Assembly (NCBI GenBank): GCA_029379215.1
Contig: JAQYWO010000014.1
Span: 416 to 64,415 of the forward strand
Reading direction: 5' to 3'
Source: Rhizonema sp. PD37
GTDB lineage: Bacteria; Cyanobacteriota; Cyanobacteriia; Cyanobacteriales; Nostocaceae
DNA: 64,000 nt
The notes beneath the pieces are model-generated. The model was given only the letters and a program-made list of their open reading frames with translations. It made no database searches and was not told where the DNA came from. A program made the translations under genes and the position numbers. Shown one piece after another: positions 35,338 through 50,635 of this stretch (positions are counted from its first letter, which is position 1; the number at the start of each line of letters is the position of its first letter).

Positions 35338-36624
35338 TTACTTATTGTCTGAGTTAGGAATACGAGTTGTCTTTGTTGAACGCGTCTCTAATGCCATCGC
35401 GTCAACTTTTGCAACATCTCGCTTTATTCGCACTGTACCACTTGCCGCATCTTCGATTTCAACCACTTTCCGCAATAACTTAGCGGTGGCTTCGTTGCCA
35501 GATTCGTGAGCAAGTTGAACTGCCTTTCCCAGTTTGGCAGTGGCAACTTCGATATAACCGCGATCGCGTGCCTCCAACCCTTCCTGAATCGACTGAGCGA
35601 GTTCCGCTTGTCCGGTATAATGAGCTACTGTTCTCTCTATTTTTGTTGATTTGGCATCGTCGTCAGTCCAAATAGCTAAAATGCGAGCTTCAGCGACTTT
35701 TGTTTCCACACCGTTTATTGTATAAATTAAACTCGCTCTACCCGCCAACATCTCATCGCCGATATTACCGGGCTGTACTTGAATGCAGAAGTGGTAGTCG
35801 CGAGACTCGTTTTTACCCCAAGCACCAGTCGGATAGTCGTAAACTTGGGTTTTGACAACTTTGGCGCGGTTGCTTATATCTACAAGATCGGGACTAACCT
35901 GCTTGCAATACAGTACTTGGGCACTTTGTGGAGTCCACAGGCGCAACGCTACATCGCTGACATTTTTGCTCATGGCTTTCTCTAAAATGGCTCGAAAGTC
36001 AGCTTCAATCATTGTCGCATTGGAAATAATGTCGGTAGTTCCCAGTAATTTTGCGGATATTATTTGTAGTTGTTTCACCTGCCAATCAGTTCCCACACCC
36101 CGGCAGTCACACTGGAAAACTCCTTCACATCCTTGTAGAACGTCGTTGAGTTGCTTTTCATCAGAGTCATCATTTTCTCCATCTGTCAACAACAATGCCT
36201 GACGCAACGCATTCGGCATTGTCTGGAACTGTTTTAGGGCTTCAAATAACCACTTAGAAATCACAGTGCCACCAGTAGCTGAAATTTTTCTGATGGCGGC
36301 GATCGCTTGCTCTTTGTTTACAGGAGTCGCTTTTGACACTGGATAAATAAGTTGGGCAAGACTAGCTCCAGTAACGATGAAGAAAGATGTGTCCTCAGGC
36401 AGCAAATTCACGATTTTAACCATCGCATCCCTCGCTGCATGAATTTTTCCACCCCCCATCGAACCAGAGGTATCGCATATTATCCCAAACATTTTGTTAC
36501 CCATAGAAGTGGCATTCACTCCTTCGCCACCAATAGCCGTAACTGTCATAATGGCATGGACTTCTTTTATCCCCTGTGATAAATATTGATTTTGAAAAAC
36601 TTCCGCTTTGAATTGGGTTGTCAT
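35338..36624 (-). CDS. vWA-domain protein (TerY-like)
   Basis: MIDAS motif ICDTSGSMGG ... LLTDGEND. Helical C-terminal extension. Confidence 0.8.
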   Translation of the reverse strand: MTTQFKAEVFQNQYLSQGIKEVHAIMTVTAIGGEGVNATSMGNKMFGIICDTSGSMGGGKIHAARDAMVKIVNLLPEDTSFFIVTGASLAQLIYPVSKATPVNKEQAIAAIRKISATGGTVISKWLFEALKQFQTMPNALRQALLLTDGENDDSDEKQLNDVLQGCEGVFQCDCRGVGTDWQVKQLQIISAKLLGTTDIISNATMIEADFRAILEKAMSKNVSDVALRLWTPQSAQVLYCKQVSPDLVDISNRAKVVKTQVYDYPTGAWGKNESRDYHFCIQVQPGNIGDEMLAGRASLIYTINGVETKVAEARILAIWTDDDAKSTKIERTVAHYTGQAELAQSIQEGLEARDRGYIEVATAKLGKAVQLAHESGNEATAKLLRKVVEIEDAASGTVRIKRDVAKVDAMALETRSTKTTRIPNSDNK

Positions 36625-36662
36625 AAGATTTTCTTTATATATTCACGCGAAGGAGATTGGCC

Positions 36663-37604
36663 TTATTTTATAGATAAGACAGCGACAGTAATATTGTCGT
36701 GACCACCAGAGTGTAGAGCAAATTCCACTAACCTCCGTGCTATTGTAGCCGTATCTGCATCTGACTTGACAAGAGTTTCAATTTGTGTAGTACCATCAGT
36801 GTAATTCCACAATCCATCGGTACATAGCAGTAGATAGCCAGAACCAGGAATATTAAAATTGACTATAGACGGTTCCACGTTGCTCGCATCCACTCCCAAC
36901 CAACGGGTAATTGCATGAGCCTGAGGTGATTTTATAGCTTCGGCTTCGTTCATTTCACCTGAGGAAACAGCTTCTTGCACCCAAGAATCATCGCGAGTTA
37001 ATTGCCGTGAACCATTTGGAGAAATCCAGTAGGCGCGGCTATCTCCCAGCCAAGCAATGGTAGCAGTACGCTCAACAACTAGAGCTGCAACAATTGTGGT
37101 TGATGGTGGATCTGCGCCTGCAATTCTCGTATATGGGATAGCACATACTGAGTTCATCGCCTCAGTAATTGCTGCATTCATTGTATCAGGAAAAACAATA
37201 TTTTGTAACTCTACCGCAGCAGCTAGCATTCTACATGTGCTTTCAGCAGCTGCTTTCGCGGCTAATTCAGGTGATTCTGAACTCGATACACCATCGCAAA
37301 CAACGAGAATGTAAGCATTTCTATGATCAACTCGGGCACAAGCAACATAGTCTTCGTTACGGTGGTGCCTGAAGCCGCGATCGCTTATACCAGCAAGGTT
37401 GTGAAAAGGTATAATTTCTAACCTATCATTCTCTCTATTTTCCCGACGAAAGCCACAGTGAGAACAAAAGCCATCAGCATTGATGAGTTGCGTTGGGGCA
37501 CCACACTTTTCACATCCAATTGATTTTGTGATTAGAGGTGTGCCGCATTCTTCACAGAAGCGATCGTCAACTTGTACGGTAGTACCACATTTTAAACATT
37601 GCAT
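36663..37604 (-). CDS. PP2C-family Ser/Thr phosphatase with two N-terminal zinc ribbons
   Basis: CLKCG...FCEECG and CEKCG...FCSHCG. PP2C blocks RHHRNEDY, VCDGVSS, LCTDGLWN, GGHDNITV. Confidence 0.88.
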   Translation of the reverse strand: MQCLKCGTTVQVDDRFCEECGTPLITKSIGCEKCGAPTQLINADGFCSHCGFRRENRENDRLEIIPFHNLAGISDRGFRHHRNEDYVACARVDHRNAYILVVCDGVSSSESPELAAKAAAESTCRMLAAAVELQNIVFPDTMNAAITEAMNSVCAIPYTRIAGADPPSTTIVAALVVERTATIAWLGDSRAYWISPNGSRQLTRDDSWVQEAVSSGEMNEAEAIKSPQAHAITRWLGVDASNVEPSIVNFNIPGSGYLLLCTDGLWNYTDGTTQIETLVKSDADTATIARRLVEFALHSGGHDNITVAVLSIK

Positions 37605-37911
37605 GGTGGTGTAAAGCGATAATCAATTGTCAGAAAAGGCTTTAACTTTGTACTCCAAATCTAAGTAACTATTTTCCAAATTTAGCTAACAATTCTTCAC
37701 ATAATAAAGGGTGTAAGGGAAACGTAAGCGTGCTTTTGAGAAGGCGAGTTTCCTACCATAGGCTGCTAGTGCTACGAACGTAGCGTCACCCGTTAGCGAT
37801 AGCGTCAGCGTTAGCGACGGAGGAGCGTCGGAACGAGCGTCAGGGCAAAAATGAATATTTTGCTATCCTATAATTAATATAGATTCTTTTAAAAAATTAC
37901 TAAATTCCAGC

Positions 37912-38526
37912 ATGCCATACAGTGCTTTTACTTTCAACAAAGTTAAAAAAGACTTTAATCTCACAGTTATTGAAAATCAAGATTTGTTCTCAGATGTGCA
38001 GGCAGTTGCTTCTACGGAATACCTCACGATGATTCTCAAAGAACATTTACCTTTAGTAACCGCAATTAATACAGAAAAGGCACGCTCAGAACTCATTCTT
38101 ATGCCAGTTGTTATCGAAGTCAGACGGTATTTTAATTACCAAATTAGTGTTTTTTCAGGTTCAGAGTTTAATGTGGATGCTTCCAAGGGTTTAGAGGGAC
38201 GTTGTGATTTCATTTTGAGTCGCTCGCCAGAACAATATGATATTACTAGTCCTGTTATGACCATCGTGGAAGCCAAGAATGAAAGTATTAAATCTGGCTT
38301 GGGGCAGTGCATTGCAACTATGATTGCTGCTCAGTTATTTAACCAACGACAGGAAATATTTCCAGAATATATTTATGGTACTGTGACAACTGGAACTGAC
38401 TGGAAATTCCTAAAACTCTGCGGTCGCACTATCTTCATTGATAAAAATGATTATTTCATTAAGGAAGTAGAAAAAATTTTAGGAATCTTGGCGACAACAT
38501 TAACACTAACGCCTGAGATTTTATAA
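37912..38526 (+). CDS. hypothetical protein with a PD-(D/E)xK-like motif
   Basis: GRCDFIL ... IVEAKNE spacing fits a restriction-endonuclease-fold core. No further assignment. Confidence 0.45.
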   Translation: MPYSAFTFNKVKKDFNLTVIENQDLFSDVQAVASTEYLTMILKEHLPLVTAINTEKARSELILMPVVIEVRRYFNYQISVFSGSEFNVDASKGLEGRCDFILSRSPEQYDITSPVMTIVEAKNESIKSGLGQCIATMIAAQLFNQRQEIFPEYIYGTVTTGTDWKFLKLCGRTIFIDKNDYFIKEVEKILGILATTLTLTPEIL

Positions 38527-38587
38527 CAAACCCAACACAAAGCATGCTAGGCGTTCTAGGATATTAACAAAATAGCACTTAATTATC

Positions 38588-39172
38588 ATGATTGCTAACG
38601 CCAACCTACCGCCCATGTCTCCCCAGGAATATCTGGAATGGGAAGAACACCAACCGATTAAATACGAATACGTTAATGGCGAAGTATTTGCCATGACGGG
38701 GGGAACTCTCGCTCACAACTCCATTGCCCTCAATTTAGCATCTGCTCTCAAAAATCATCTCCGAGGTAAAGGCTGTAAAGTATTCATGGCAGATGCCAAA
38801 CTTGGCGTATCAGAACAAGGTCCCTATAACTATCCTGATGTAATGGTGACTTGCGACCAACGCGACCAAACCGCCCGCAAAACAGTACAATATCCTTGTC
38901 TAATTGCCGAAGTTCTTTCCCCTAGTACTGAAGCTTACGACCGTGGTAGCAAATTTGTCCACTACCGCCGCCTCAAAACCTTGAAAGAATACGTCCTCAT
39001 TGATGCGGAAAAACTCAGTGTCGAATGCTACAGAATCAACGAGCGCGGTAAATGGGAACTAACTCACTACTTGACTGAGGAAATAAATCCAGAAGCAACA
39101 GAAACAGAAGTTCATCTGACTAGTGTAGATTTTCGCTTTCCAATATCTTTACTCTACGAAGATGTAGTATAA
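38588..39172 (+). CDS. Uma2-family (DUF820) endonuclease
   Basis: YEYVNGEVFAM..H..I...L; PDVMVTCD; AEVLSPSTEAYDRGSKF..Y..L..L.EYVLID. Confidence 0.85.
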   Translation: MIANANLPPMSPQEYLEWEEHQPIKYEYVNGEVFAMTGGTLAHNSIALNLASALKNHLRGKGCKVFMADAKLGVSEQGPYNYPDVMVTCDQRDQTARKTVQYPCLIAEVLSPSTEAYDRGSKFVHYRRLKTLKEYVLIDAEKLSVECYRINERGKWELTHYLTEEINPEATETEVHLTSVDFRFPISLLYEDVV

Positions 39173-39196
39173 TAATATTTTTTCGGAGAATAGCTG

Positions 39197-39898
39197 TTGA
39201 GCAACCTATATCAAGGTAAAGACCCCCGCAACATTGGGACTTATAGTGCAATGGATGCGGTACACTATTTGCGTGTACCGTACTCGACGGTACGTTCTTG
39301 GGTCTTTGGCGCTCGATATAAAACGAAAGCAGGTTCAAAACGCTTCGAGCCAGTTATCAAAATTCCAAAGTCTGATAAGCGATTATTATCTTTTACTAAT
39401 TTGATTGAGCTGCACGTCCTGAATGCGATTCGTCGGTATCATCAAATATCTTTGGAAAAAGTAAGACTTGGCGTTGCATATCTTCAAGACTCTTATGGGA
39501 TGGATCATCCACTTGCTTATAAAAAGCTTTATACAGATGGGATGGATTTATTCATTGAGCATTTAGGGTGTTTAGTGAATGCTTCACAGCATGGACAGTT
39601 AGCGATACCAGAAATTATTAAAGTTTATCTGAAGCGAATTGATTGGGATGAGGCAGATTTGCCAGCAAAGCTTTATCCATTCACTCGAACAAGAGAAACT
39701 GAATTGCCAAAGTTGATTGTGATAGATCCGTTAGTATCTTTTGGGCAACCTGTTTTAGAGGGAACAGGAGTGCCAACAAGTATTTTGGCTCAAAGGTATG
39801 CTGCAGGAGACTCAATTCATGACTTAGCAGAAGATTATGATTGCGATCGCCTCAAAGTAGAAGAAGCTATCCGGTATGAACTAGCATTGGCAGCATGA
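39197..39898 (+). CDS. DUF433-type antitoxin-like protein with an N-terminal HTH
   Basis: C-terminal FGQPVLEGTGVPTSILAQRYAAGDSIHDLAEDYDCDRLKVEEAIRYE (DUF433 pattern). 4-nt overlap with the next ORF. Confidence 0.7.
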   Translation: MSNLYQGKDPRNIGTYSAMDAVHYLRVPYSTVRSWVFGARYKTKAGSKRFEPVIKIPKSDKRLLSFTNLIELHVLNAIRRYHQISLEKVRLGVAYLQDSYGMDHPLAYKKLYTDGMDLFIEHLGCLVNASQHGQLAIPEIIKVYLKRIDWDEADLPAKLYPFTRTRETELPKLIVIDPLVSFGQPVLEGTGVPTSILAQRYAAGDSIHDLAEDYDCDRLKVEEAIRYELALAA

Positions 39899-40290
39899 GT
39901 GAAGAGATTGAAATTAGGTTTTTTATTGACCGCTCTTTAGGAAAAACTCATGTTGTAAATGCTCTTAGGAATATAGGAGAATTAGTAGAAATTCACGACG
40001 ACCATTTTAATCAAGCAACGGCTGATACGGATTGGTTGCCAATAGTAGCGTTAAAGGGTTGGGTGATTCTGACTGCTGATAAAAAAATTGCTCATCGTCG
40101 TTTAGAACTTATGGCTGTTCAAGAGTCAGGTGCGCGTATGTTTGTGTTGGTGTCGGGAAACTTGTCTGGAATCGAGATGGCAGAAATATTTGTTCAAGCA
40201 GTACCCGCAATGAAGCGCTTCATTGCAAACACTCCAGCACCTTTTATGGCTAAGGTACACAAGAATGCTAGTGTGAAGGCATGGAAGTAA
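39895..40290 (+). CDS. DUF5615-type (PIN/Mut7-C-like) toxin-like protein
   Basis: IRFFIDRSLG...L...G ... VILTADKKI pattern. Coupled to the DUF433 gene. Confidence 0.65.
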   Translation: MSEEIEIRFFIDRSLGKTHVVNALRNIGELVEIHDDHFNQATADTDWLPIVALKGWVILTADKKIAHRRLELMAVQESGARMFVLVSGNLSGIEMAEIFVQAVPAMKRFIANTPAPFMAKVHKNASVKAWK

Positions 40291-40337
40291 GAAGCCATGA
40301 CTCCCCTATCCTTACTCTAAGAAGATGTTCAATTTGC

Positions 40338-40484
40338 TACTTCAGACGATAATATTTCACCGTGTTACTCAGGTTTTGTGATTTTATTCTCTGTCTCTCA
40401 GGGTTGATAGATAATCTGACCTCTACCCATGCGATCGCTCTTAAATCACGAGAAGCCGATAGCGAAATAATATACTGACTCATT
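40338..40484 (-). pseudogene. ParE-family toxin remnant (48 codons)
   Basis: My translation: MSQYIISLSASRDLRAIAW... (ParE N-terminal pattern y.ls..A..DL..I), then unrelated sequence and an early stop. ATGA overlap with the parD remnant. Confidence 0.5.
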
Positions 40485-40650
40485 TCTGAGACTTTTTAAC
40501 CTGCTGTAAATCTACCAAAAGTTGATTCACGAAAGTTTCACCATCAATTCCTTCGCCACGCTCAAGTGATACTATCCCTTCATCAATCTTGGCGCGAGTT
40601 TCGTCAACCCATACTTGACTCTTTTCTGTTTCCAACGCCACTTTTCTAAG
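40481..40650 (-). pseudogene. ParD-family antitoxin remnant (C-terminal half only)
   Basis: My translation: ...ALETEKSQVWVDETRAKIDEGIVSLERGEGIDGETFVNQLLVDLQQVKKSQK*. An upstream in-frame TAG removes the RHH N-terminus. The truncation point abuts the 19-bp repeat at 40665. Confidence 0.55.
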
Positions 40651-40664
40651 CTATGACTGAGTAT

Positions 40665-40683
40665 AACGTGCAAATCGTTTCCA
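40665..40683 (+). repeat. 19-bp direct repeat, copy 1 (AACGTGCAAATCGTTTCCA)
   Basis: Identical to 44190-44208. The flanks are unrelated. Confidence 0.9.
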
Positions 40684-40719
40684 GCTCACAGAAATTGATT
40701 TCTAAATAGGAGCAAGAGC

Positions 40720-41109
40720 ATGAGTAACTTTTACGAACTGATTCAGAAGATGAAGAAAAGAGCTTCCATGTATCTGGGTAAACCCGCAATCACTAACCTC
40801 CGTTCCTGTTTAGCTGGTTACATTCTTGCTCGTCTTGAACTAGGAATTTCTCAGACTGAACAAGAAAAGAACTTTACGGAATTCCAAGGATGGATTCAGA
40901 AAAAATTTAACATCACCTCCAGCCAATCCTGGGATAAAGTCATTCTCTTCTATTCAGAAGATGAACGCACGGAGCTAGAGCGTTTCTTTGAGTTATTTGA
41001 AGAGTTTGTAAGCCCTGATAACAAAACTAAGCTTAAATCACAAGATTCTCTATTAGAATCTTCGTCCGACTTTTTGCTGGGTAAACTCTTAAGTTCAACG
41101 AACTCTTAA
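40720..41109 (+). CDS. hypothetical protein (129 aa)
   Basis: GGAG 8 nt upstream of the ATG. No recognisable motif. Confidence 0.5.
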   Translation: MSNFYELIQKMKKRASMYLGKPAITNLRSCLAGYILARLELGISQTEQEKNFTEFQGWIQKKFNITSSQSWDKVILFYSEDERTELERFFELFEEFVSPDNKTKLKSQDSLLESSSDFLLGKLLSSTNS

Positions 41110-41170
41110 GAACTGCTCTGATAATTTTATTCAAAGCGCAAGTCTATTCTACAATTCACATTTATGACTT

Positions 41171-42325
41171 CTAGTTCAATCCAGAACTGTACTGTTTATT
41201 GAGTTTAATTCCAGGGGCATAACTGACTGCCTCAATACGTTTGAGCTTTTTGTGCAACTGCTTATATCGTGCTGTTGCTCCTTGTTTTGCGTAGAGAGTC
41301 GCGGCCTCCCGATCATCTTTAATTGCTCCTTGTTTGTCTCTTAACTCGCAGCGAGCAATAGCGCGAATCATGTAGGCATCAGCCAAGTTAGGAGCGAGCT
41401 CAATAACGTGTGTATAATCTTCGATTGCTGCCTTATAATCTTTTAGAAAATAGTGGGCATCAGCAAGTCCTTTGTATGCATCAGTATAGTTTCGATCAAT
41501 TTTAATAGCTTGAGTGTAGTCTTTAACTGCTTTTAGATATTCGCTATTTACACTTTTTTTCTTTCCCTGATTAAAGAAGCTTTTTGCTTGATTTTTTTGA
41601 GAGTTCCTTTTTTCAATTTTTTGCTCTCCCTGATTAAAGGTGCTTTCTGCTTTGTGTTTTTGAGCAAAGTTATTAAATCCTAAAACTCCAGCAACAACTA
41701 AAACACTAGCCGCAATAAGAACTGAGCGAGTGGATATGTTTGGAGAGCGAATAATTTTCTGAAAGAATTGGTTATAAATGAAACTGTTAATAGGTGTAAA
41801 AATTGCAGCTTGTTTTGCTATAGTAAACTGTGTCTGCTTTTGCTCTTGTTCCAATTTCTCAATTTCTTCTCTAATGCCTTGAGCAATATCTACAAATGCT
41901 AGATTGTGGGTTATCCAAACTCTTCTGTTATCTACAGGTTCGCCATTGCTAGGCAAAGGTTTTAAGTCTCTAAACGGTGTAGCCTCCCAGTTATCAATTT
42001 GGCGGAGTTTAACAGGGATAACAAGGGATTTTTCACGATCGTGCAGTTTCATAGCCTGCTCTCCAATCTTCCAGCCATCAACCGAATTCATAAAATCTTT
42101 ACTAACTAGCAGAACAATTACGCGAGATGTCTTCAGGTGTCGGTAATTTTCCTGCTTCCAGTTACTTCCCGCAACCGTTTGACATTTATACCAGTTGATC
42201 CTCAATCCATTATTTCGTTTCAAATTGAAGAGTTGTGCGTCTAAATTTGCACGCATGTTTTCGTCTTTTTGGGAGTAGAAAAAGGAAATAGTAATAACTC
42301 TGCTAAATATCGGAAAGACAGACAT
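41171..42325 (-). CDS. TIR domain - TM helix - TPR repeat protein
   Basis: N-terminal TIR_2-like block (ISFFYSQKDE...VIVLLVSKDFMNSVDGWKIGEQA...VIPV). Hydrophobic SVLIAASVLVVAGVLGF. C-terminal TPR units (YTQAIKIDRNYTDAYKGLADAHYFLKDYKAAIEDYTHVIEL...). Confidence 0.75.
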   Translation of the reverse strand: MSVFPIFSRVITISFFYSQKDENMRANLDAQLFNLKRNNGLRINWYKCQTVAGSNWKQENYRHLKTSRVIVLLVSKDFMNSVDGWKIGEQAMKLHDREKSLVIPVKLRQIDNWEATPFRDLKPLPSNGEPVDNRRVWITHNLAFVDIAQGIREEIEKLEQEQKQTQFTIAKQAAIFTPINSFIYNQFFQKIIRSPNISTRSVLIAASVLVVAGVLGFNNFAQKHKAESTFNQGEQKIEKRNSQKNQAKSFFNQGKKKSVNSEYLKAVKDYTQAIKIDRNYTDAYKGLADAHYFLKDYKAAIEDYTHVIELAPNLADAYMIRAIARCELRDKQGAIKDDREAATLYAKQGATARYKQLHKKLKRIEAVSYAPGIKLNKQYSSGLN

Positions 42326-42400
42326 AAATTACAACTTAGTTCTGTTATATGAATGAAATGCTTTTAAACAGCTCAATGTTCACAACTTTTTAATCTGCAC

Positions 42401-43612
42401 TTAAGGTAATTCGCCACATAGTTTTCCTATTTCTTCGGCAAATTCTTCAGCAATGGTAACAAATGCTTCATTCTGACTTTTCCAATATCTACTAGTTACA
42501 AACTTACCATTCTTAGGTAAAGGCTGGAGATCGCCAAGCTCGAACTTACCAGGCTTAACGGTTTGCCAACCTGCAACTGAACTTAGAAGTACAGGAATCA
42601 CGAGAGTCCCTTCTTCTTCTCGTCTTTCCATTGCTCGCTTAGCCTCATAGTCAAGGTGGTAATCCGAAGAAAGAAAATGCCGACTAATAAGTAAGAGAAT
42701 TATAGAAGCTGAGTTCAAATGCTGAGTAATCTCTACCTTCTTATGTTTCCCTGGTGCAATTTTACTTTCATCCCAAATTTTTATATTACCTTGCGACTCC
42801 AAAAAGCTAAAAGATATTTGTAGATCCTTTCGGAGTTTTTCATCTTTTGGACAGTAAGATAAGAAAACTTCCATATTCTCTATATTTGCTTGTTTCGATT
42901 TGTGAAATGTTAGTAAATCTTGTTGGAGCTTGTAATTTACTAGAGTGGAAGTTTCCGGCTTAGTAGATTTTGGGGTTTGAGGTTCAACGCCAACAGCAGA
43001 AAATAGAGCAGTTGTGTTTAAACCTTCATTGTGCAACTGGCTTTTTGTGAACAGTTTAGGAGTCAAATACTCTGGAATACGTGAGACGCGGATAAGTTGA
43101 CGACCTAATTCGTAGGCAGATTCAACAGAATTTCTATCCCCTAAAGCATCGTAAAAACCAACGGCAAATTCAATTGCCGCCTGATCACCTATTTCTTTGC
43201 TCATGCCGATGACGTAATCAATATGTTGCGCGATCGCCTGAGCTTGAATCTCCGAATGACAAGCATTGAGTAATACACATTTAACATACTCCGCAAAATA
43301 CTTAAACAATCCAGCTAGCGCCTCTGCATCTACTAACTTTTCTTGCCCTGTTTCATCCTCAAATACTAAGCCTTTTTCCTGAGCGCCATGTCCTGAAAAA
43401 TGGACAATCTGTGGCTGGAAGTACATGATTTCTCGATGAATATCTCTATAGCGCACTGCTACTGCCAATTCAATTTGAAATTGGTCGCGTCCTTTTGATT
43501 GTCTTAATCCATTCTTTATTTCGCGTAACTCTTCGTCTATACGCAGTCTGCTTGTACCTTTCGGATTGGCTGCCAAAATTAAGATTTTGTTGACTGAGGT
43601 TCCACTATTCAT
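42401..43612 (-). CDS. caspase-like (minimal CHAT) protease domain fused to a TIR domain
   Basis: N-terminal ILILAANP...IVHFSGHG...CVLLNACHS (His/Cys dyad in caspase/CHAT spacing). C-terminal TIR_2-like VFLSYCPKDE...IILLLISRHFLSSDYHLDYEAKRA...VIPVLL. Confidence 0.75.
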   Translation of the reverse strand: MNSGTSVNKILILAANPKGTSRLRIDEELREIKNGLRQSKGRDQFQIELAVAVRYRDIHREIMYFQPQIVHFSGHGAQEKGLVFEDETGQEKLVDAEALAGLFKYFAEYVKCVLLNACHSEIQAQAIAQHIDYVIGMSKEIGDQAAIEFAVGFYDALGDRNSVESAYELGRQLIRVSRIPEYLTPKLFTKSQLHNEGLNTTALFSAVGVEPQTPKSTKPETSTLVNYKLQQDLLTFHKSKQANIENMEVFLSYCPKDEKLRKDLQISFSFLESQGNIKIWDESKIAPGKHKKVEITQHLNSASIILLLISRHFLSSDYHLDYEAKRAMERREEEGTLVIPVLLSSVAGWQTVKPGKFELGDLQPLPKNGKFVTSRYWKSQNEAFVTIAEEFAEEIGKLCGELP

Positions 43613-43809
43613 TTAAGGATTTTATGTAGATACTATTTAGCACTGCAATTTTCAGTTGAATTTTCTTGAGCCGATCTGACAAGGTATATACCTTGTCACT
43701 CAGAGCCACTCAGAAATCTAAATCCTGGATATTACATATAATTACATAGAGCTTGCCGCAAATTCCAGATGAATAGCGACTCAAAAACTCTTTACATTAC
43801 AACTCATCC

Positions 43810-44184
43810 TTAAACCTGCCTCAGCATCCACAGCATGGGGTCGAGAATCCGTAATCCTTCAAAAGAGGAAGCTGTTTCACTGTTATTACCTATGCCAATA
43901 GCACAACATAAGAAAAATCGCACTCTAGAAAAATGACTGCGGAGGTTACGAACAAAGTTACCAGCACCGTAATCGATCAGGAACTCTTCTACCACCTTGT
44001 CCATCGCATCTTCCACCTTACGAATTTTGGCTTGAGGATGATCCAGCATGTACTGACGTGCCGCTGGTTCTCCGATTTTTTGCTCCATATCAAACGCATC
44101 AGATTTAGTAACGACGACAGCTAAAGGCGCACGAACTCGTTGATTGCGCTTGAGATTGAGCTTAGTCTCAAAGAGCATCAACAT
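43810..44184 (-). pseudogene. P-loop GTPase-like gene, C-terminal fragment (N-terminal part decayed)
   Basis: VVVTKSD resembles the NKxD specificity motif. No Walker A in the ORF. Upstream (44209-44400) only frame-broken pieces can be read (..ISSGKCRKK.., ..TFHYVDAL*). Confidence 0.4.
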
Positions 44185-44189
44185 AGTGG

Positions 44190-44208
44190 AACGTGCAAAT
44201 CGTTTCCA
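44190..44208 (+). repeat. 19-bp direct repeat, copy 2 (AACGTGCAAATCGTTTCCA)
   Basis: Identical to 40665-40683. Lies at the frame break of the GTPase remnant. Confidence 0.9.
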
Positions 44209-44695
44209 TCGTATCGCTTGTTGCTTTGACTACAGGTGAGAGCGCATTTGCTACATTCAATTCTTTACACTTAAGAAGGCGTAACGGCAGTCGGCAGCTA
44301 TGCTGCTATGTATCCCCATAAATAAATATATTCGATTTAATAAGGACGTAGCATTTCTTGCGGCACTTTCCGCTCGAAATACATATTTTTTTCTTTTTCA
44401 TACTTAAAAGTAGGGGCTTGTACCCACAATTATGATAACTTTGAGCATCCCTTTATACCTTTTTTCTTTTACCTCCTTCAGCATAGCTGCAATCATGCCT
44501 CTGCCTTTCCTCGGTCATCTAGTATACCGATTTTTTCTAAGTAAATAATCCTTGCCTTAAGTAACTTGCAGATGATAGCTAACAAGGTTGGCTTCTTAAC
44601 CAGGAATAGCTGAAGATTTTGGATTAGCGATCGCAAACAAAATAAATGATGCACTACAGTCTCATGTAAAATTGGATTAAGTAAATAAATCCTAT

Positions 44696-45451
44696 ATGCT
44701 CTATATGGATACCCTAAAGCAAGCGGCAAAAAGATTATTAGGTCAGTCTTTAGTGAATAAATGGCGATTATGGAAAGTCAAAAAAACATATAAGGAGCTA
44801 GTGGGAAAATCGTCAGAAGAAATATTTACTTCGTTTTACGAAAAGAATCATTGGCGCGATGAACAATCAAAATCCGGTCCTGGTTCATCAGACTTTGAAA
44901 CTAAACATATTCGCACGATTTTGCCTAACCTAATACAAGAGCTTAATATTAACGTCCTCTTGGATGTACCTTGTGGCGATTTCAATTGGATGAAATTTAT
45001 TGAATTGGGAAATTGTGACTACATTGGTGGAGATATTGTCAAAGAACTAATCACAATTAATCAAAATAAATATGCAAGCCATAAGCGGAAATTTTTATCT
45101 TGTGATATTAGAAAAGATGAGCTTCCATCTGCTGATTTGATTCTCTGTAGAGACTGCTTTTTCCACTTATCATTTGAGGACATATTTGCAGCAATAGAGA
45201 ATTTTCAAGCTACTAAATCGATATATTTGCTAACTACCACTCATCCTGATACTAGAGAAAATCTTCCTATCGTAACAGGCGGTTATCGTTCTCTTAACAT
45301 GTGCCTAGAACCCTTTAACTTTCCAACCCCATTAAAACTTATTTATGAAAGACGTGATGCAGGTTTTGCAGATACTGATAAGTGCATAGGTCTTTGGAAA
45401 CTGAGTGATCTGCTCAATAAAAAGGGAAGATATTTATCGACAAATGTTTAA
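44696..45451 (+). CDS. class I SAM-dependent methyltransferase
   Basis: Motif I-like LLDVPCGDFNWM. Motif post-I GGDIV. LILCRDCFFHL. Confidence 0.65.
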   Translation: MLYMDTLKQAAKRLLGQSLVNKWRLWKVKKTYKELVGKSSEEIFTSFYEKNHWRDEQSKSGPGSSDFETKHIRTILPNLIQELNINVLLDVPCGDFNWMKFIELGNCDYIGGDIVKELITINQNKYASHKRKFLSCDIRKDELPSADLILCRDCFFHLSFEDIFAAIENFQATKSIYLLTTTHPDTRENLPIVTGGYRSLNMCLEPFNFPTPLKLIYERRDAGFADTDKCIGLWKLSDLLNKKGRYLSTNV

Positions 45452-45596
45452 CCCGGATTTGTTCTTACAAGCCTACGGTAAGATATATCGCACAACACGA
45501 GTGCAATGACACGCCCGCGCAGCAGACGAAACTGTAGATGGAATGTCAAGAGCAAAAATTGATGCCATGATTAACGATCTTCGTTATGAAAGGTAT
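45450..45596 (+). pseudogene. reverse transcriptase (group II intron / retron-type) N-terminal fragment
   Basis: My translation: NPDLFLQAYGKIYRTTRVQ*HARAADETVDGMSRAKIDAMINDLRYERY. It matches the RT N-terminal pattern ..AY.kIy.nkGa.TpG...eTvDGMs.ekI..li..Lr.erY. One in-frame stop, and similarity ends after RYERY. Confidence 0.5.
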
Positions 45597-45686
45597 CTAG
45601 GCTTCTTCTTGACGAGCATATTTCATCCACTGTTGCTGTACAGTTACAAGCAATCAACTGCACTGATTTATACTGTAGTGGGTAGT

Positions 45687-47861
45687 TCACAACCAAGTTC
45701 TCGGACGCACGCGGTTGGCTTCATCAACCAGGTGGATCTTTTCATCTCCAGTTGAGAGGTGTGCCATATCCCGCAGGGCTTTTTCCAACCCTTTTCTAAG
45801 ATACAATTCCTCCAAAGGTTGTCCTAGAATTGAAATCGCGGAAGTAGAGGAGAGTGCTTGAGAAGTGACAAGATGTAAGGCTGTCTCCAAAACCTGTTTC
45901 GTTAATTGATGGCGATCCATACCTTTGAGAGTCAGCGCTTCAATTGCTGTGGAAGCTTCTTTGAGTTCTTGTGCACCAGGTGCGGAACTGGAACGATCAA
46001 TAAGTGTCCGAGCAATTTCCACACGCGATCGCGTATACAAATTGGAAGTTTGCGGTACGCGTTCCAATGCTGCCACTGCATTGTTTCTATCTCCTGTGGC
46101 GCATAAGCAACGAGCTAAACCGAAAGTAGCTGAGGTATAACTGGGATCGGTACGAGACACCAAGTCGTACATCTGAATTGCTAGTGGCAAATGATCTGCT
46201 GCTTCTGCTGCTAAAGCAAGTGCTAGTTTAGGTGTTAGTTCTCCAGGTAAATCAAAGTAAACTTGGTCAAAAGCTGCTTGAGCCTCTTGAGCTTTACCGT
46301 GTGCCATCAAACTTCGTCCCCGATACCACAGCACTCGCCAATCCCAAGGGTCTTTTTGCTCCACTTGTGCCAAAAGCTGTTCCGCCTCATCATAAATACC
46401 AACTTCAATCAAGCTGTTTGCCAAACGCAGCAATGCTTCCTTAGAATCTGGAAAGTGCAGGACAACTTGTCTCAAACTGGTTACTCGCTTCACAGAATCG
46501 GCAATGGCACTCGCATTGAGTATCGCGTTAAAACCTGGTTCTGTGGTATCCAACATCGGCATCGGCAACTGGTGATAATCGGCTTTGATGGCACTCAAAT
46601 CACCACTATTGATCAGTGCCAGCATATCTCCACCAAAAAGGTTACTGGTAGCTGGACGTGGAGTCTTGGTTTCCCTAGCAACAATCTCCCGCAGCACTCC
46701 AAGTAACTGATCTGCCATTTCATCAGCAGACTGGAAGCGCTCGTCAGGATTTTCTGCTGTGGATTTTAGTAAAAAACGATACAAGGACTCTTGCTCGGCA
46801 AACAGTGGTTCTTCTTGAGGACTGGGCAGCTTGTGTAAATGTTCTTTAGTAAAGCTGCTGATGTTAGTGAGCAAAACAGCAAGAGTCCTGCCAATGGTGA
46901 ATAAATCTGAGACTACCGTTGGTCCTTCACTCGCTTCAGGAGCGCTGTAGCCGACTGTACCATAAATGTCCCCGTGCAGATCGTCTATGCGTCGCACGCC
47001 GCCCAAGTCGATTAATTTTACATCGTTGTCTTCAAGCATCACGTTATCCGGCTTGAAGTCACAATATACCAAACCTAAGGAATGCAAGTAAGCAAAAGCA
47101 CTTAAAATCCGGTGAATGTAAGCGATCGCCTCCGTGACTGGCAATGGACCTCGCTGTTTGCGAATGTCCCTCAACGTTTTGCCACCCACATACTCCATAA
47201 CGATGAAGCCTTCGCTACCGTAGTTAACAAAGTTATAAATGCCGACAATATTGGCATGTTTCACCGCAGCTAAAAATTGACGTTCTGCCACTGCCACTGC
47301 TGCACTTGCCGCATCTTCAGTATTTAGCAGACCTTTGAGTACGACGTAACGAGACAGCGTTTTATCAAAGCCCAAGTAAATCCAGCCCAGTCCACCAAAG
47401 GCGATCGCACCTTTAACTTCATATTGTCCAGCCACTAAATCTCCTGGAAAGAGAGACGGTATAAAGGAATACTTGTGCCCACATTTGGGACAAAAGCCTT
47501 TCTCACGAACGAGAGGATTGTTGCAATTTGCACAGAAGCGTTTGTTGTCGGGAACCTTCGCCTCCACCATGATTGCCTTTTCTGGTTCTGTGGAAGGAAG
47601 TTCGGGCACAGAGACAAGTCCGGCCCCAAGTTGCTTGCGGGTGCTTCTCTTCGAGGTGTTGTTTGTACGACGCGAACCTTTAGAACGATTGGTTAGTGGA
47701 GATGATCCCGTACCTGTAGTAATGTTTGTGCTTTGCTTCGTTTCCATTCGCATGGAAACATCAACCAATGACGAATTGAAGTCAGCAAGTCCGCACACAT
47801 TACAATAGCCATCTTCAATGATGCCAGTACACTTATTATGCTTACAGCGATCGCCTTCCAT
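45687..47861 (-). CDS. Ser/Thr protein kinase with two N-terminal zinc ribbons and C-terminal TPR-like repeats
   Basis: CKHNKC...YCNVCG and CANCN...FCPKCG. Kinase blocks GGLGWIYLG, VVLKG, YCDFKPDNVM, DLGG, GTVGYSAPE. Helical repeats in the C-terminal half. Confidence 0.85.
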   Translation of the reverse strand: MEGDRCKHNKCTGIIEDGYCNVCGLADFNSSLVDVSMRMETKQSTNITTGTGSSPLTNRSKGSRRTNNTSKRSTRKQLGAGLVSVPELPSTEPEKAIMVEAKVPDNKRFCANCNNPLVREKGFCPKCGHKYSFIPSLFPGDLVAGQYEVKGAIAFGGLGWIYLGFDKTLSRYVVLKGLLNTEDAASAAVAVAERQFLAAVKHANIVGIYNFVNYGSEGFIVMEYVGGKTLRDIRKQRGPLPVTEAIAYIHRILSAFAYLHSLGLVYCDFKPDNVMLEDNDVKLIDLGGVRRIDDLHGDIYGTVGYSAPEASEGPTVVSDLFTIGRTLAVLLTNISSFTKEHLHKLPSPQEEPLFAEQESLYRFLLKSTAENPDERFQSADEMADQLLGVLREIVARETKTPRPATSNLFGGDMLALINSGDLSAIKADYHQLPMPMLDTTEPGFNAILNASAIADSVKRVTSLRQVVLHFPDSKEALLRLANSLIEVGIYDEAEQLLAQVEQKDPWDWRVLWYRGRSLMAHGKAQEAQAAFDQVYFDLPGELTPKLALALAAEAADHLPLAIQMYDLVSRTDPSYTSATFGLARCLCATGDRNNAVAALERVPQTSNLYTRSRVEIARTLIDRSSSAPGAQELKEASTAIEALTLKGMDRHQLTKQVLETALHLVTSQALSSTSAISILGQPLEELYLRKGLEKALRDMAHLSTGDEKIHLVDEANRVRPRTWL

Positions 47862-50423: not shown

Positions 50424-50635
50424 AAGAAGTGGTTTATTCGACACACTACCTTTGATTTCAACACTCTACAGATGTAGGGTGTTTATTCAAAAATAAAATA
50501 GGATTTCTATATTAGACGCAAGTAATGGGAGAAGTCAAGTTTTTTAAGGTTTTTAAAAGTAATATATAAGACCTGGTATACAGATTCAGCAGGGCAGTAT
50601 CAGTTCATCTGACGAGTTGAATGAAAATACTTAAA

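What the first reader, a model, noticed from the sequence alone, without database searches (positions are those of the whole stretch)
41171..43612. Two-gene CHAT(caspase-like)-TIR plus TIR-TM-TPR cassette: candidate cell-suicide/defence module
The upstream gene fuses a minimal caspase/CHAT fold with an intact dyad (HFSGHG ... LNACHS) to a TIR domain. 75 nt downstream, a second protein has TIR, one TM helix and TPR repeats. Both TIRs keep an acidic residue at the position where the catalytic Glu is expected (DYEAKRA; KIGEQA). TIR NADases and caspase-like proteases are each effectors or signal generators in known bacterial immune systems (Thoeris, CBASS, gasdermin systems, type III-E CRISPR). 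I do not know of a characterised system made of just these two architectures. The TPR/TM protein could be the sensor/anchor and the protease-TIR the executioner, or the reverse. The adjacent GTPase relic suggests an originally three-gene system that has lost its NTPase.
Basis: partly seen in the sequence, partly recalled or inferred. Interest (0 to 1): 0.7.

Follow-up and report, generated by a model that had tools for sequence, protein, structure and literature searches.

The report
Caspase-like protease–TIR gene with membrane TIR partner
A filamentous cyanobacterium carries a conserved, uncharacterised gene pair: a caspase-like protease fused to a TIR domain, always next to a membrane-anchored TIR protein that lacks the catalytic residue and exposes a variable sensor domain outside the cell, which looks like a receptor-to-protease cell-death or defence switch.

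Summary
Both genes are real and intact. Gene A (42401-43612, minus strand) is a minimal CHAT/caspase-fold protease fused to a TIR. His75 and Cys118 are invariant in 39 homologs, and the TIR keeps the canonical catalytic Glu (E323). Gene B (41171-42325, minus strand) lies 75 nt downstream and is TIR + one TM helix + TPR.

B's TIR has Ile87 at the catalytic-Glu position, invariant in its clade; the cited Glu (E89) is out of register and not conserved. The "GTPase relic" has no GTPase support and never accompanies the pair elsewhere.

Co-occurrence is strong. In 19 of 19 distinct loci with a B-type gene, an A-type TIR gene lies directly upstream. B's C-terminal domain varies (TPR, CHASE2, or an unknown Cys-pair domain) and is predicted to lie outside the cytoplasm. 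In two Nostoc loci the CHAT domain is swapped for a helical domain. Elsewhere, CHAT-TIR genes sit beside NB-ARC or iSTAND/MoxR/vWA genes instead of B.

Best reading: B is a membrane sensor with a non-enzymatic TIR that controls the A protease through TIR-TIR contact. The closest characterised system is type IV Thoeris, but the pair does not meet its defining features. I rate it a new variant of a known kind; the mechanism is inferred, not shown.

The parts
42401..43612 (-). Gene A: CHAT-TIR fusion protein, 403 aa
   Evidence: ORF; Pfam and PADLOC domains; more than 100 full-length homologs, mainly in Nostocales; AF2 pLDDT 81; dN/dS 0.36-0.39 against orthologs.
43046..43591 (-). Minimal CHAT/caspase-fold protease domain (aa 8-189). 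Catalytic His75 is codon 43388-43390; Cys118 is codon 43259-43261.
   Evidence: Aligns to SAVED-CHAT 8TL0 (profile E 6.6e-23; Foldseek E 3e-13, rmsd 2.6 A). H75 and C118 invariant in 39 sequences. dN/dS 0.25-0.29. Codons verified.
42881..43033 (-). Disordered inter-domain linker of gene A (aa 194-244)
   Evidence: pLDDT below 50. Length and sequence vary between clades. dN/dS 0.6-0.8.
42419..42880 (-). TIR domain of gene A (aa 245-398), with the canonical catalytic Glu323 (codon 42644-42646)
   Evidence: TIR_2 E 3.6e-11; PADLOC ThsB1 6e-30. E323 aligns with the catalytic Glu of plant TIRs and Cat1. Foldseek hits to L6, RPP1, RUN1 and the MAL filament. The Glu is absent in close relatives P0003, P0005 and P0007.
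42326..42400 (-). 75-nt A-B intergenic spacer
   Evidence: No promoter- or terminator-like site above chance. Gaps of 48-201 nt on the same strand in all paired loci.
41171..42325 (-). Gene B: TIR-TM-TPR protein, 384 aa. It is 100% identical to an annotated protein of the Rhizonema sp. PD37 MAG.
   Evidence: ORF; Pfam; P0121 at 100% identity; dN/dS 0.46-0.72.
41846..42301 (-). N-terminal TIR domain of gene B (aa 9-160).
   Evidence: TIR_2 E 1.8e-7; PADLOC ThsB1 6e-25. Family profile against Cat1 puts Ile at the catalytic Glu. I87 invariant in A3/A4. E89 is K, R or N in relatives.
41666..41722 (-). Single transmembrane helix of gene B (aa 202-220), preceded by a long helix (aa 140-192)
   Evidence: Hydropathy 2.07; helices in the AF2 model. 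Flanks in 25 family members carry 80 K/R on the N side and 25 on the C side, which implies N-in, C-out.
41216..41608 (-). C-terminal TPR module of gene B (aa 240-370), predicted to lie outside the cytoplasm
   Evidence: TPR_1 E 1.2e-10; pLDDT 84-97. Foldseek matches three-repeat peptide-binding TPR modules. Repeat number varies from 2 to 5 in homologs.

Best explanation
The two genes form one operon-like module.

- Gene B is a bitopic inner-membrane protein. Its N-terminal TIR is in the cytoplasm, and its C-terminal TPR module is on the periplasmic side.
- B's TIR has lost the catalytic glutamate. It therefore cannot work as a canonical NAD-cleaving TIR and most likely acts as a protein-protein interaction (scaffold) domain.
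- Gene A is the cytoplasmic output: a minimal caspase-like (CHAT) cysteine protease tethered by a ~50-residue flexible linker to a TIR that pairs with B's TIR.
- Inferred mechanism: when B's outer domain senses an envelope or periplasmic cue (phage attack, envelope damage or a filament-level signal), B changes its clustering and nucleates or releases A through heterotypic TIR-TIR contacts.
- The resulting proximity or oligomerisation switches on the CHAT protease, as oligomerisation does for SAVED-CHAT and caspases. The protease then cleaves cellular targets, leading to growth arrest or death of the cell.
- A's TIR still has its Glu in this genome. It may also hydrolyse NAD+ once assembled, but that activity seems dispensable because close relatives lack the Glu.

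Shown here: domain identities, catalytic-residue status, gene linkage, and topology signals.

Inferred: the direction of signalling, the TIR-TIR contact, the activation mode and the biological role.
For: 1. Strict linkage. Every B-type gene with context has an A-type TIR gene directly upstream on the same strand, 48-201 nt away, in 19 of 19 distinct loci. This holds in different chromosomal contexts.
2. A-TIR and B-TIR divergence matrices correlate at r = 0.83, which is consistent with inheritance as a pair but could also reflect shared phylogeny.
3. The TIR-TIR pair is the constant core.
   - B's C-terminus swaps between TPR, CHASE2+3TM and an unknown Cys-pair domain.
   - A's CHAT is replaced by an ~80-aa helical domain in L086 and L089, while both TIRs stay.
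4. B's TIR has Ile, Val or Leu (Asp in the CHASE2 forms) at the catalytic-Glu column throughout the family.
5. CHAT H75 and C118 are invariant, and the CHAT domain has the lowest dN/dS (0.25-0.29). A's TIR Glu is lost in P0003, P0005 and P0007, which still have partners.
6. Topology points to TIR in, sensor out.
   - B has no signal peptide.
   - TM flanks carry 80 K/R on the N side against 25 on the C side.
   - CHASE2 is an established extracytoplasmic sensor domain (named as such in PMC8195603).
7. B evolves faster than A, as expected of a sensor: identity between the window and L001 is 81% for the A-TIR and 64% for the B-TIR, and dN/dS is 0.46-0.72 for B against about 0.37 for A.
8. The closest solved CHAT, 8TL0, is the activated SAVED-CHAT filament.
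9. In other genomes the same CHAT-TIR gene sits upstream of NB-ARC-WD40, NB-ARC-TPR, EAD9-iSTAND+AAA+vWA and VMAP+AAA genes. So it behaves as a portable effector gene next to varied candidate sensor modules.
Against: - No physical A-B interaction was tested, and a complex could not be modelled with the tools on hand.
- The window's A-TIR keeps its catalytic Glu, so small-molecule (Thoeris-like) signalling is not excluded.
- The C-terminal flank of the window's own TM helix is also fairly basic (2 K/R and 2 D/E within 15 residues). The topology call rests on the family, not on this one sequence.
- B's AF2 model is only moderate in the TIR (pLDDT 53-83) and poor around the TM helix.
- B's dN/dS of 0.5-0.7 and the degraded A copy in L092 could mean partial decay rather than sensor diversification.
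- Only 10 of 26 CHAT-TIR loci in the genome scan have a B gene.
- There are no expression or phenotype data.
Confidence: 0.5

Rival explanations
1. Thoeris-like small-molecule signalling. On infection, A's Glu-bearing TIR makes a cADPR-type nucleotide. That molecule activates the fused CHAT protease (a cis version of type IV Thoeris), or it is bound by B's catalytically dead TIR, in which case B acts as a membrane-damaging effector.
For: Both TIRs score best against PADLOC's ThsB1 model (6e-30 and 6e-25). A keeps E323, as do most family members. TIR plus a caspase-like protease is a proven defence pairing with a nucleotide signal (type IV Thoeris). Thoeris effectors often carry TM helices.
Against: No recognisable nucleotide-sensing domain (SLOG, Macro, SAVED, etc.) occurs in either protein. 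A's TIR shows no similarity to the type IV PsTIR (E 1.7). Three close relatives that still have partners lack the TIR Glu while keeping the protease dyad. B's variable CHASE2, TPR and Cys-pair outer domains look like sensors, not pore-forming effectors.
Confidence: 0.2
2. Guard or antitoxin-like control. B's dead TIR constitutively binds and silences A at the membrane. Loss, cleavage or turnover of B, for example when a phage shuts off host synthesis or damages the envelope, frees A to self-associate and kill the cell.
For: The linkage is strict and one-directional: B never occurs without A, but A occurs without B. B's TIR is non-catalytic. The cassette sits among toxin-antitoxin genes in the window, DUF433+PIN_10, and in L002 and L089.
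Against: A simple inhibitor would not need diverse extracytoplasmic domains such as CHASE2. The many CHAT-TIR genes that lack B must be kept silent some other way. In L092, B is intact while A is degraded, the opposite of what addiction logic predicts.
Confidence: 0.15
3. Not an anti-phage system. The pair is a resident signalling or developmental module of filamentous cyanobacteria, for example envelope-stress sensing or programmed death of single cells in a filament, and it uses limited, specific proteolysis.
For: The pair sits at the same syntenic site (after RtcA and an FAD-binding gene) in Scytonema, Brasilonema and Plectonema, even though B's C-terminus differs. This argues for long vertical residence. 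The family is essentially confined to filamentous or multicellular cyanobacteria. No full-length copy occurs on viral contigs.
Against: In this window the pair lies in a lower-GC island with TA genes that splits another gene set. Homologous CHAT-TIR genes flank NB-ARC and iSTAND/MoxR/vWA modules, which the literature reads as conflict systems (PMC7159879). Occurrence is patchy, with pseudogenes.
Confidence: 0.2

Closest known systems
Type IV Thoeris (ThsB TIR + ThsE caspase-like protease; Rousset et al., bioRxiv 10.1101/2024.10.24.620036, later Science 387:510)
   Same: It is a two-gene module that combines a TIR domain with a caspase-family cysteine protease. In type IV Thoeris, both the TIR Glu and the protease Cys are needed for abortive-infection defence.
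   Different: Here the protease and a TIR are fused in one protein, and the second gene is another TIR protein that is membrane-anchored and lacks the Glu. A's TIR has no detectable similarity to PsTIR (E 1.7). No separate signal-sensing effector is present. The signal molecule N7-cADPR could not be tested.
SAVED-CHAT protease of type III-B CRISPR (PDB 8TL0)
   Same: It is the closest solved relative of A's protease domain by sequence profile (E 6.6e-23) and by fold (E 3e-13, rmsd 2.6 A). The His and Cys motifs align. 8TL0 is the activated filament form, so it is a precedent for activating a CHAT protease by oligomerisation.
   Different: There is no SAVED domain, no CRISPR or cyclase context, and identity is only about 25%. 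A TIR domain takes the place of the oligomerising sensor domain.
NTP-dependent conflict systems of multicellular bacteria (Kaur, Burroughs, Iyer & Aravind; PMC7159879 and PMC8195603)
   Same: The taxa and the parts list match: caspase-like and TIR effectors, variable sensor C-termini including CHASE2, and TPR. Homologous CHAT-TIR genes lie next to EAD9-iSTAND+AAA+vWA, VMAP+AAA and NB-ARC genes.
   Different: The window's module has no NTPase and no EAD adaptor. The partner is a TIR-TM-sensor protein instead. I found no description of this dyad in either paper's main text.
Animal Toll-like receptor with TIR adaptor signalling (an analogy in how it works, not a family membership)
   Same: There is a single-pass membrane protein with a repeat-type outer domain and a cytoplasmic TIR that lacks the catalytic Glu. 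It is paired with a cytoplasmic TIR protein that carries the output. After Cat1, the B-TIR profile's weak next-best PDB hits are TLR1, TLR6 and MyD88 (E 0.01-0.1).
   Different: The domain order is reversed, with the TIR at the N-terminus. The outer domain is TPR, CHASE2 or unknown rather than LRR. The output is a directly fused protease rather than a death-domain or kinase cascade. There is no evidence of common descent of the pathway.

Membership tests
Clan CD cysteine protease (CHAT/caspase fold) | Caspase-haemoglobinase fold with a catalytic His after strand 3 and a Cys after strand 4 | tested here: met
   Pfam CHAT 8.5e-10. 8TL0 alignment with the GHG and NAC motifs in register. AF2 plus Foldseek hits to 8TL0 and caspases-4/6/11. 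H75 and C118 invariant.
TIR NADase (enzymatic TIR) | TIR fold with the catalytic glutamate on the alpha-C helix: gene A | tested here: met
   E323 aligns with the WCLDEL Glu of plant TIRs and the Glu of Cat1. It is not universal in the family, since P0003, P0005 and P0007 lack it. Activity itself was not tested.
TIR NADase (enzymatic TIR) | TIR fold with the catalytic glutamate on the alpha-C helix: gene B | tested here: not met
   The TIR fold is supported (Pfam 1.8e-7, PADLOC 6e-25). The Glu column holds Ile87, which is invariant in the TPR clade. It is Val or Leu in the unknown-domain clade and Asp in the CHASE2 clade.
Thoeris (any type) | A separate effector gene with a domain that senses the TIR-made nucleotide (SLOG, Macro, etc.) | tested here: not met
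   No such domain appears in A, B or their neighbours in Pfam, NCBIfam or PADLOC. PADLOC matches are to single components only (ThsB1, chat).
Type IV Thoeris | A short standalone ThsB-type TIR related to PsTIR or EcTIR | tested here: not met
   Both TIRs here are parts of larger proteins. BLASTP of A against PsTIR gives E 1.7.
Type IV Thoeris | A ThsE-family caspase-like effector activated by N7-cADPR | not testable with these tools
   No ThsE sequence or structure was available for comparison. The PDB searches returned SAVED-CHAT and animal caspases only. Ligand activation needs biochemistry.
SAVED-CHAT / CBASS / type III CRISPR effectors | A SAVED (or CARF) cyclic-oligonucleotide sensor domain and an associated cyclase or Cas10 | tested here: not met
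   The PADLOC SAVED_CHAT hit covers only the CHAT part (profile positions 290-450). There is no SAVED or cyclase in the cassette or its flanks.
NTPase-centred conflict systems (STAND, MoxR-vWA, GTPase) | An NTPase component encoded in the module | tested here: not met
   Only A and B are shared by all paired loci. The proposed GTPase relic has no GTPase match, no P-loop, three homologs in all, and no linkage elsewhere. Other CHAT-TIR genes do sit beside NB-ARC or AAA+vWA genes.
Bitopic membrane receptor (N-in, C-out) | A single TM helix, a cytoplasmic N-terminal domain and an extracytoplasmic C-terminal domain | tested here: inconclusive
   One hydrophobic helix and no signal peptide. TM flanks carry 80 K/R (N side) against 25 (C side) over 25 homologs. 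CHASE2 variants exist, and the unknown-domain variants have a conserved Cys pair. No experimental topology is available, and the window's own C-flank is not acidic.

The most novel reading that the evidence does not exclude
This is a bacterial receptor-adaptor pathway in which TIR domains act as non-enzymatic assembly modules, as in animal Toll-like receptor signalling. A transmembrane sensor with a Glu-less TIR (outer domain TPR, CHASE2 or a Cys-pair domain) recruits a cytoplasmic TIR protein. That protein's fused caspase-like protease is switched on by induced proximity. The pathway would link events in the shared periplasm of a cyanobacterial filament to death or arrest of individual cells.
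Probability: 0.3. Interest if true: 0.85.

Novelty: new variant of a known kind. Interest (0 to 1): 0.6.

Why it matters
The bacterial TIR systems covered by the papers I read (Thoeris types and TIR effectors of CBASS, Pycsar and pAgo systems) use the TIR as an NAD-processing enzyme. Scaffold-type TIR signalling is usually described as an animal feature.

This pair is strictly linked, and one of its TIRs has systematically lost the catalytic residue. That TIR is wired to extracytoplasmic sensor domains, and the other is fused to a caspase-like protease. Together they give a concrete, testable candidate for enzyme-independent TIR-TIR signalling in bacteria, and for membrane-to-caspase death signalling in a multicellular prokaryote.

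The analysis also shows that the ~190-residue CHAT module and the CHAT-TIR gene recur beside several different candidate sensor modules: membrane TIR receptors, NB-ARC STAND proteins and iSTAND/MoxR/vWA sets. That helps in annotating cyanobacterial conflict loci.

If it proves to be only another NADase/protease abortive-infection module, it still extends the TIR-plus-caspase theme of type IV Thoeris to a fused, membrane-coupled form.

Tried and rejected
1. GTPase relic as a lost third component: rejected.
   - It has no family or PDB match.
   - It has three homologs in total.
   - Its one distant homolog sits in an unrelated context next to IS-like sequence.
   - Neither copy has a P-loop upstream.
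   - None of the 82 CHAT loci has a homolog.
2. B's E89 as a catalytic residue: rejected on family and profile alignments.
3. Recent gene conversion or duplication between the A-TIR and B-TIR of one cassette: rejected. Cognate pairs are no more alike than non-cognate pairs (43.6% against 42.2% identity).
4. A conserved third gene: the all-against-all comparison of 11 paired loci found only A and B in all of them. RtcA and the FAD-binding gene are shared by five loci as plain synteny.
5. Phage-borne origin: viral contigs hold only CHAT-only relatives at 32-44% identity.
6. Metagenome scan with the mixed partner-TIR alignment failed because it was too diverse. The TPR-clade alignment worked, but 54 of its 58 loci were generic TIR proteins that score better on the A-TIR model, so I set them aside.
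7. A fold search of the B model gave only generic TPR hits and nothing useful on its TIR.
I re-ran it without that row.
9. An exact-sequence look-up of gene A found no record. The source organism was identified through gene B instead.
10. The Yirmiya et al. supplement has no CHAT or PF12770 entry. One of its files was cut when stored, so absence there is not proof.
Full report
**1. What is there**

The window carries two adjacent minus-strand ORFs at exactly the stated coordinates.
- Gene A: 42401-43612, 403 aa.
- Gene B: 41171-42325, 384 aa.
- They are separated by 75 nt. No promoter- or terminator-like site above chance lies between them.
- Gene B is 100% identical to a protein annotated in a Rhizonema sp. 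PD37 MAG, a filamentous cyanobacterium of the Nostocales. That identifies the source.

**2. Gene A**

- Pfam finds CHAT (residues 26-162, E 8.5e-10) and TIR_2 (249-354, E 3.6e-11). PADLOC finds 'chat' (8e-21) and ThsB1 (6e-30).
- The protease part aligns to the solved SAVED-CHAT protease 8TL0, at E 2.5e-12 with the single sequence and 6.6e-23 with the family profile. The GHG and NAC motifs are in register.
- In 39 full-length homologs, H75 and C118 are invariant.
- The AlphaFold2 model has pLDDT 81. It shows two well-folded domains joined by a disordered linker at residues 194-244.
- Foldseek matches the first domain to 8TL0 (E 3e-13, rmsd 2.6 A) and to caspases-4/6/11. It matches the second domain to the plant TIRs L6, RPP1 and RUN1 and to the MAL TIR filament.
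- That Glu is not invariant. The close relatives P0003, P0005 and P0007 (68-77% identity) lack it but keep the protease dyad.

**3. Gene B**

- It has TIR_2 (17-114, E 1.8e-7; PADLOC ThsB1 6e-25), one hydrophobic helix (202-220) and TPR repeats (about 240-370).
  - A joint alignment of the A-type and B-type TIRs, and a B-family profile aligned to Cat1, both place Ile87 at the catalytic-Glu column.
  - I87 is invariant in 15-16 TPR-clade homologs.
  - The Glu in 'KIGEQA' is E89, two residues out of register. Relatives have K, R or N there.
- Other B-type clades have Val or Leu at the catalytic column. The CHASE2 clade has Asp.
- So B's TIR lacks the canonical catalytic residue across the family.

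**4. The 'GTPase relic' (43810-44184)**

- It has no match in Pfam, NCBIfam, PADLOC or the PDB.
- It has only three homologs among 5.8 billion proteins, one of which is itself.
- Its one distant homolog lies in an unrelated context, and neither copy has upstream similarity or a P-loop.
- No homolog lies within 6 kb of any of the 82 CHAT-containing loci.
- The idea of a lost NTPase is therefore unsupported.

**5. Co-occurrence from A to B**

- CHAT-TIR proteins of 345-410 aa form a large family, mostly from Nostocales, with members in Acaryochloris, Leptolyngbyales and others.
- In the genome scan, 10 of 26 loci with a full-length CHAT-TIR gene have a second TIR gene immediately downstream on the same strand. 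Counting L001, it is 11 of 27.
- That second gene always has the same plan: N-terminal TIR, then a TM helix, then a variable C-terminal part.
  - TPR: window, L001, L003, L005, L052.
  - CHASE2 plus three more TM helices: L007, L009 (Pfam E about 5e-43).
  - An unknown ~110-residue domain ending in a conserved CNQTC-type Cys pair: L006, L011, L012, L018, L022.

**6. Co-occurrence from B to A**

- Four B homologs chosen from the protein search, and four true B-family loci from the metagenome scan, all have an A-type TIR gene directly upstream.
- After removing duplicates, that makes 19 of 19 distinct loci, with gaps of 48-201 nt.
  - Sixteen have an intact CHAT-TIR gene.
  - In L092 the A gene is fragmentary.
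  - In two Nostoc genomes (L086, L089) the CHAT domain is replaced by an ~80-residue helical N-terminus. The Glu-bearing TIR and the TIR-TM-TPR partner are both retained.
- So the TIR-TIR gene pair is the constant core. Both the protease and the outer domain of B are exchangeable.
- A-TIR and B-TIR divergence matrices correlate (r = 0.83). Cognate pairs are no more alike than non-cognate pairs (43.6% against 42.2%). This fits old co-inheritance rather than recent duplication or gene conversion.
- Only A and B are shared by all paired loci.
- In Scytonema, Brasilonema and Plectonema the pair sits at one syntenic site, after RtcA and an FAD-binding gene, even though B's C-terminus differs. That indicates vertical inheritance with domain swapping.

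**7. Topology and selection**

- B has no signal peptide. Its first residues already form the first TIR strand.
- Over 25 family members, the 15 residues before the TM helix hold 80 K/R and 4 D/E. The 15 residues after it hold 25 K/R and 31 D/E. By the positive-inside rule, the TIR is cytoplasmic and the C-terminal domain is outside.
- CHASE2 is a recognised extracytoplasmic sensor domain (cited as such in PMC8195603). A conserved Cys pair in the unknown domain fits a periplasmic location.
- dN/dS against three orthologs:
  - A: 0.36-0.39 overall, with CHAT 0.25-0.29, TIR 0.31-0.48 and linker 0.6-0.8.
  - B: 0.46-0.72 overall.
- Both genes are constrained. The protease is the most constrained part, and B the least.

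**8. Wider context of the effector gene**

- CHAT-TIR genes without a B partner sit directly upstream of other candidate sensor or regulator modules.
  - EAD9-iSTAND + AAA + vWA: L010, L014, L016, L075.
  - EAD9-VMAP + AAA + FGE-sulfatase: L013.
  - NB-ARC-WD40: L017, L021.
  - NB-ARC-TPR: L019, on Acaryochloris plasmid pREB7.
- These are the NTP-dependent conflict systems described by Kaur et al. (PMC7159879, PMC8195603).
- The ~190-residue CHAT module alone is fused to many other C-terminal regions in Nostocales (loci L025-L082).
- CHAT-TIR therefore behaves as a portable effector gene. The window shows a version in which a membrane TIR receptor takes the place of the NTPase module.

**9. 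Mechanism**

- The best-supported reading has B as a bitopic membrane sensor whose Glu-less TIR is an interaction domain, and A as the cytoplasmic output.
- A signal at B's outer TPR changes B's clustering and nucleates or releases A through TIR-TIR contacts. The CHAT protease is then activated by proximity or oligomerisation. The solved relative 8TL0 is the activated filament form, which is a precedent.
- A's own NADase potential (E323) may add NAD+ depletion or a nucleotide signal. It appears dispensable, because partnered relatives lack the Glu.
- Domain identity, residue status, linkage and topology signals are shown. The interaction, its direction, the activation mode and the biological role are inferred.
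- Rivals, each with its evidence in the Rival explanations section:
  - Thoeris-like nucleotide signalling, with B as a membrane effector or modulator.
  - B as a guard or antitoxin-like inhibitor of A.
  - A resident developmental or stress module rather than phage defence.

**10. Comparison with known systems**

- The closest characterised system is type IV Thoeris, a short TIR plus the caspase-like ThsE with N7-cADPR as signal. The window's pair shares the TIR-plus-caspase theme but fails the membership features tested.
  - It has no standalone ThsB-type TIR, and A against PsTIR gives E 1.7.
  - It has no separate signal-sensing effector.
  - Its second gene is a Glu-less TIR.
- The systematic TIR survey (bioRxiv 10.64898/2025.12.03.692087) lists 29 putative Thoeris types. 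It does not mention a CHAT-TIR fusion in its text or in the held supplements.
- CHAT plus TIR in one protein has been noted in passing as a DGR target (PMC10907252).
- I found no description of the CHAT-TIR + TIR-TM-sensor dyad.
- In how it would work, the nearest analogy is a Toll-like receptor with a TIR adaptor. That is an analogy only.

**11. Verdict**

- It is wrong on two specifics: B's catalytic residue and the GTPase relic.
- I rate it a new variant of a known kind, with interest 0.6.
- The most novel reading that the evidence leaves open is enzyme-independent TIR-TIR receptor-to-caspase signalling in a bacterium. I give it probability about 0.3, and it would be of high interest if true.

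Noticed in passing
window 35338-37604 and 45687-47861 (with 37605-45686 between them): A vWA protein (35338-36624), a zinc-ribbon PP2C phosphatase (36663-37604) and a PknG-like rubredoxin-kinase-TPR protein (45687-47861), all on the minus strand, look like one vWA-phosphatase-kinase set. It is split by an ~8-kb stretch of lower GC (0.35-0.42 against 0.44-0.47) that holds the cassette and small accessory genes. I did not check whether the three genes are contiguous in related genomes.
   Followed up: partly
window 39197-40290: A toxin-antitoxin-like pair on the plus strand with overlapping stop and start: HTH_66+DUF433 (39197-39898) and a PIN_10 PIN-like protein (39895-40290).
   Followed up: partly
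window 38588-39172; also L083 and L009: A Uma2-family putative restriction endonuclease (E 1.3e-41). Uma2 genes also occur in L083 and near the pair in L009. This is probably just a common cyanobacterial gene family.
   Followed up: no
window 40720-41109 (+); L075 1788-2147: The 129-aa ORF just downstream of gene B, convergent with it and with no family match, has a clear homolog (E 2.4e-34) about 4 kb upstream of a 469-aa CHAT-...-TIR gene in Nostoc sp. CCY 9925. It could be coincidence or a loosely associated accessory gene.
   Followed up: partly
It has only two other homologs anywhere (P0241, 54% identity, and P0242). The copy in L083 is preceded by IS-like (TnpB-type) sequence. Its function is unknown.
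   Followed up: yes
window 44696-45451 (+): A class I SAM-dependent methyltransferase-like ORF with sub-threshold Pfam matches (Methyltransf_25 at 3e-5 and Methyltransf_12 at 5e-5, both below the curated cut-offs), in the lowest-GC part of the island (GC 0.35). No link to the cassette appears in other loci.
   Followed up: partly
L006, L011, L012, L018, L022, L105 (C-terminal ~110 aa of the partner gene): An uncharacterised, predicted extracytoplasmic domain ending in 'RQVWAQVGRCNQTC', with a conserved Cys pair and no Pfam match, replaces the TPR in many partner proteins. It may be an SH3-like or other small beta domain.
   Followed up: partly
L086 4164-4952 and L089 4266-4952: In two Nostoc genomes the gene upstream of the TIR-TM-TPR gene has an ~80-residue helical, coiled-coil-like N-terminus with no Pfam match in place of CHAT. 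It may be an adaptor that recruits an effector encoded elsewhere.
   Followed up: partly
L148-L157 (IMG/VR viral contigs): Relatives of the short CHAT module alone (32-44% identity, residues ~10-200, no TIR) occur on ten predicted viral or proviral contigs. I did not examine their context.
   Followed up: no
L019 1981-9260 (Acaryochloris marina plasmid pREB7): A 1293-aa protein with the same short CHAT module, a CHAT-TIR gene and an NB-ARC-TPR STAND gene lie in tandem on a plasmid. This is a compact Apaf-1/caspase-like arrangement.
   Followed up: partly
window 50500-55000: A second stretch of low GC (0.35-0.39) compared with about 0.44-0.47 in the regions upstream of it. I did not examine it.
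   Followed up: no
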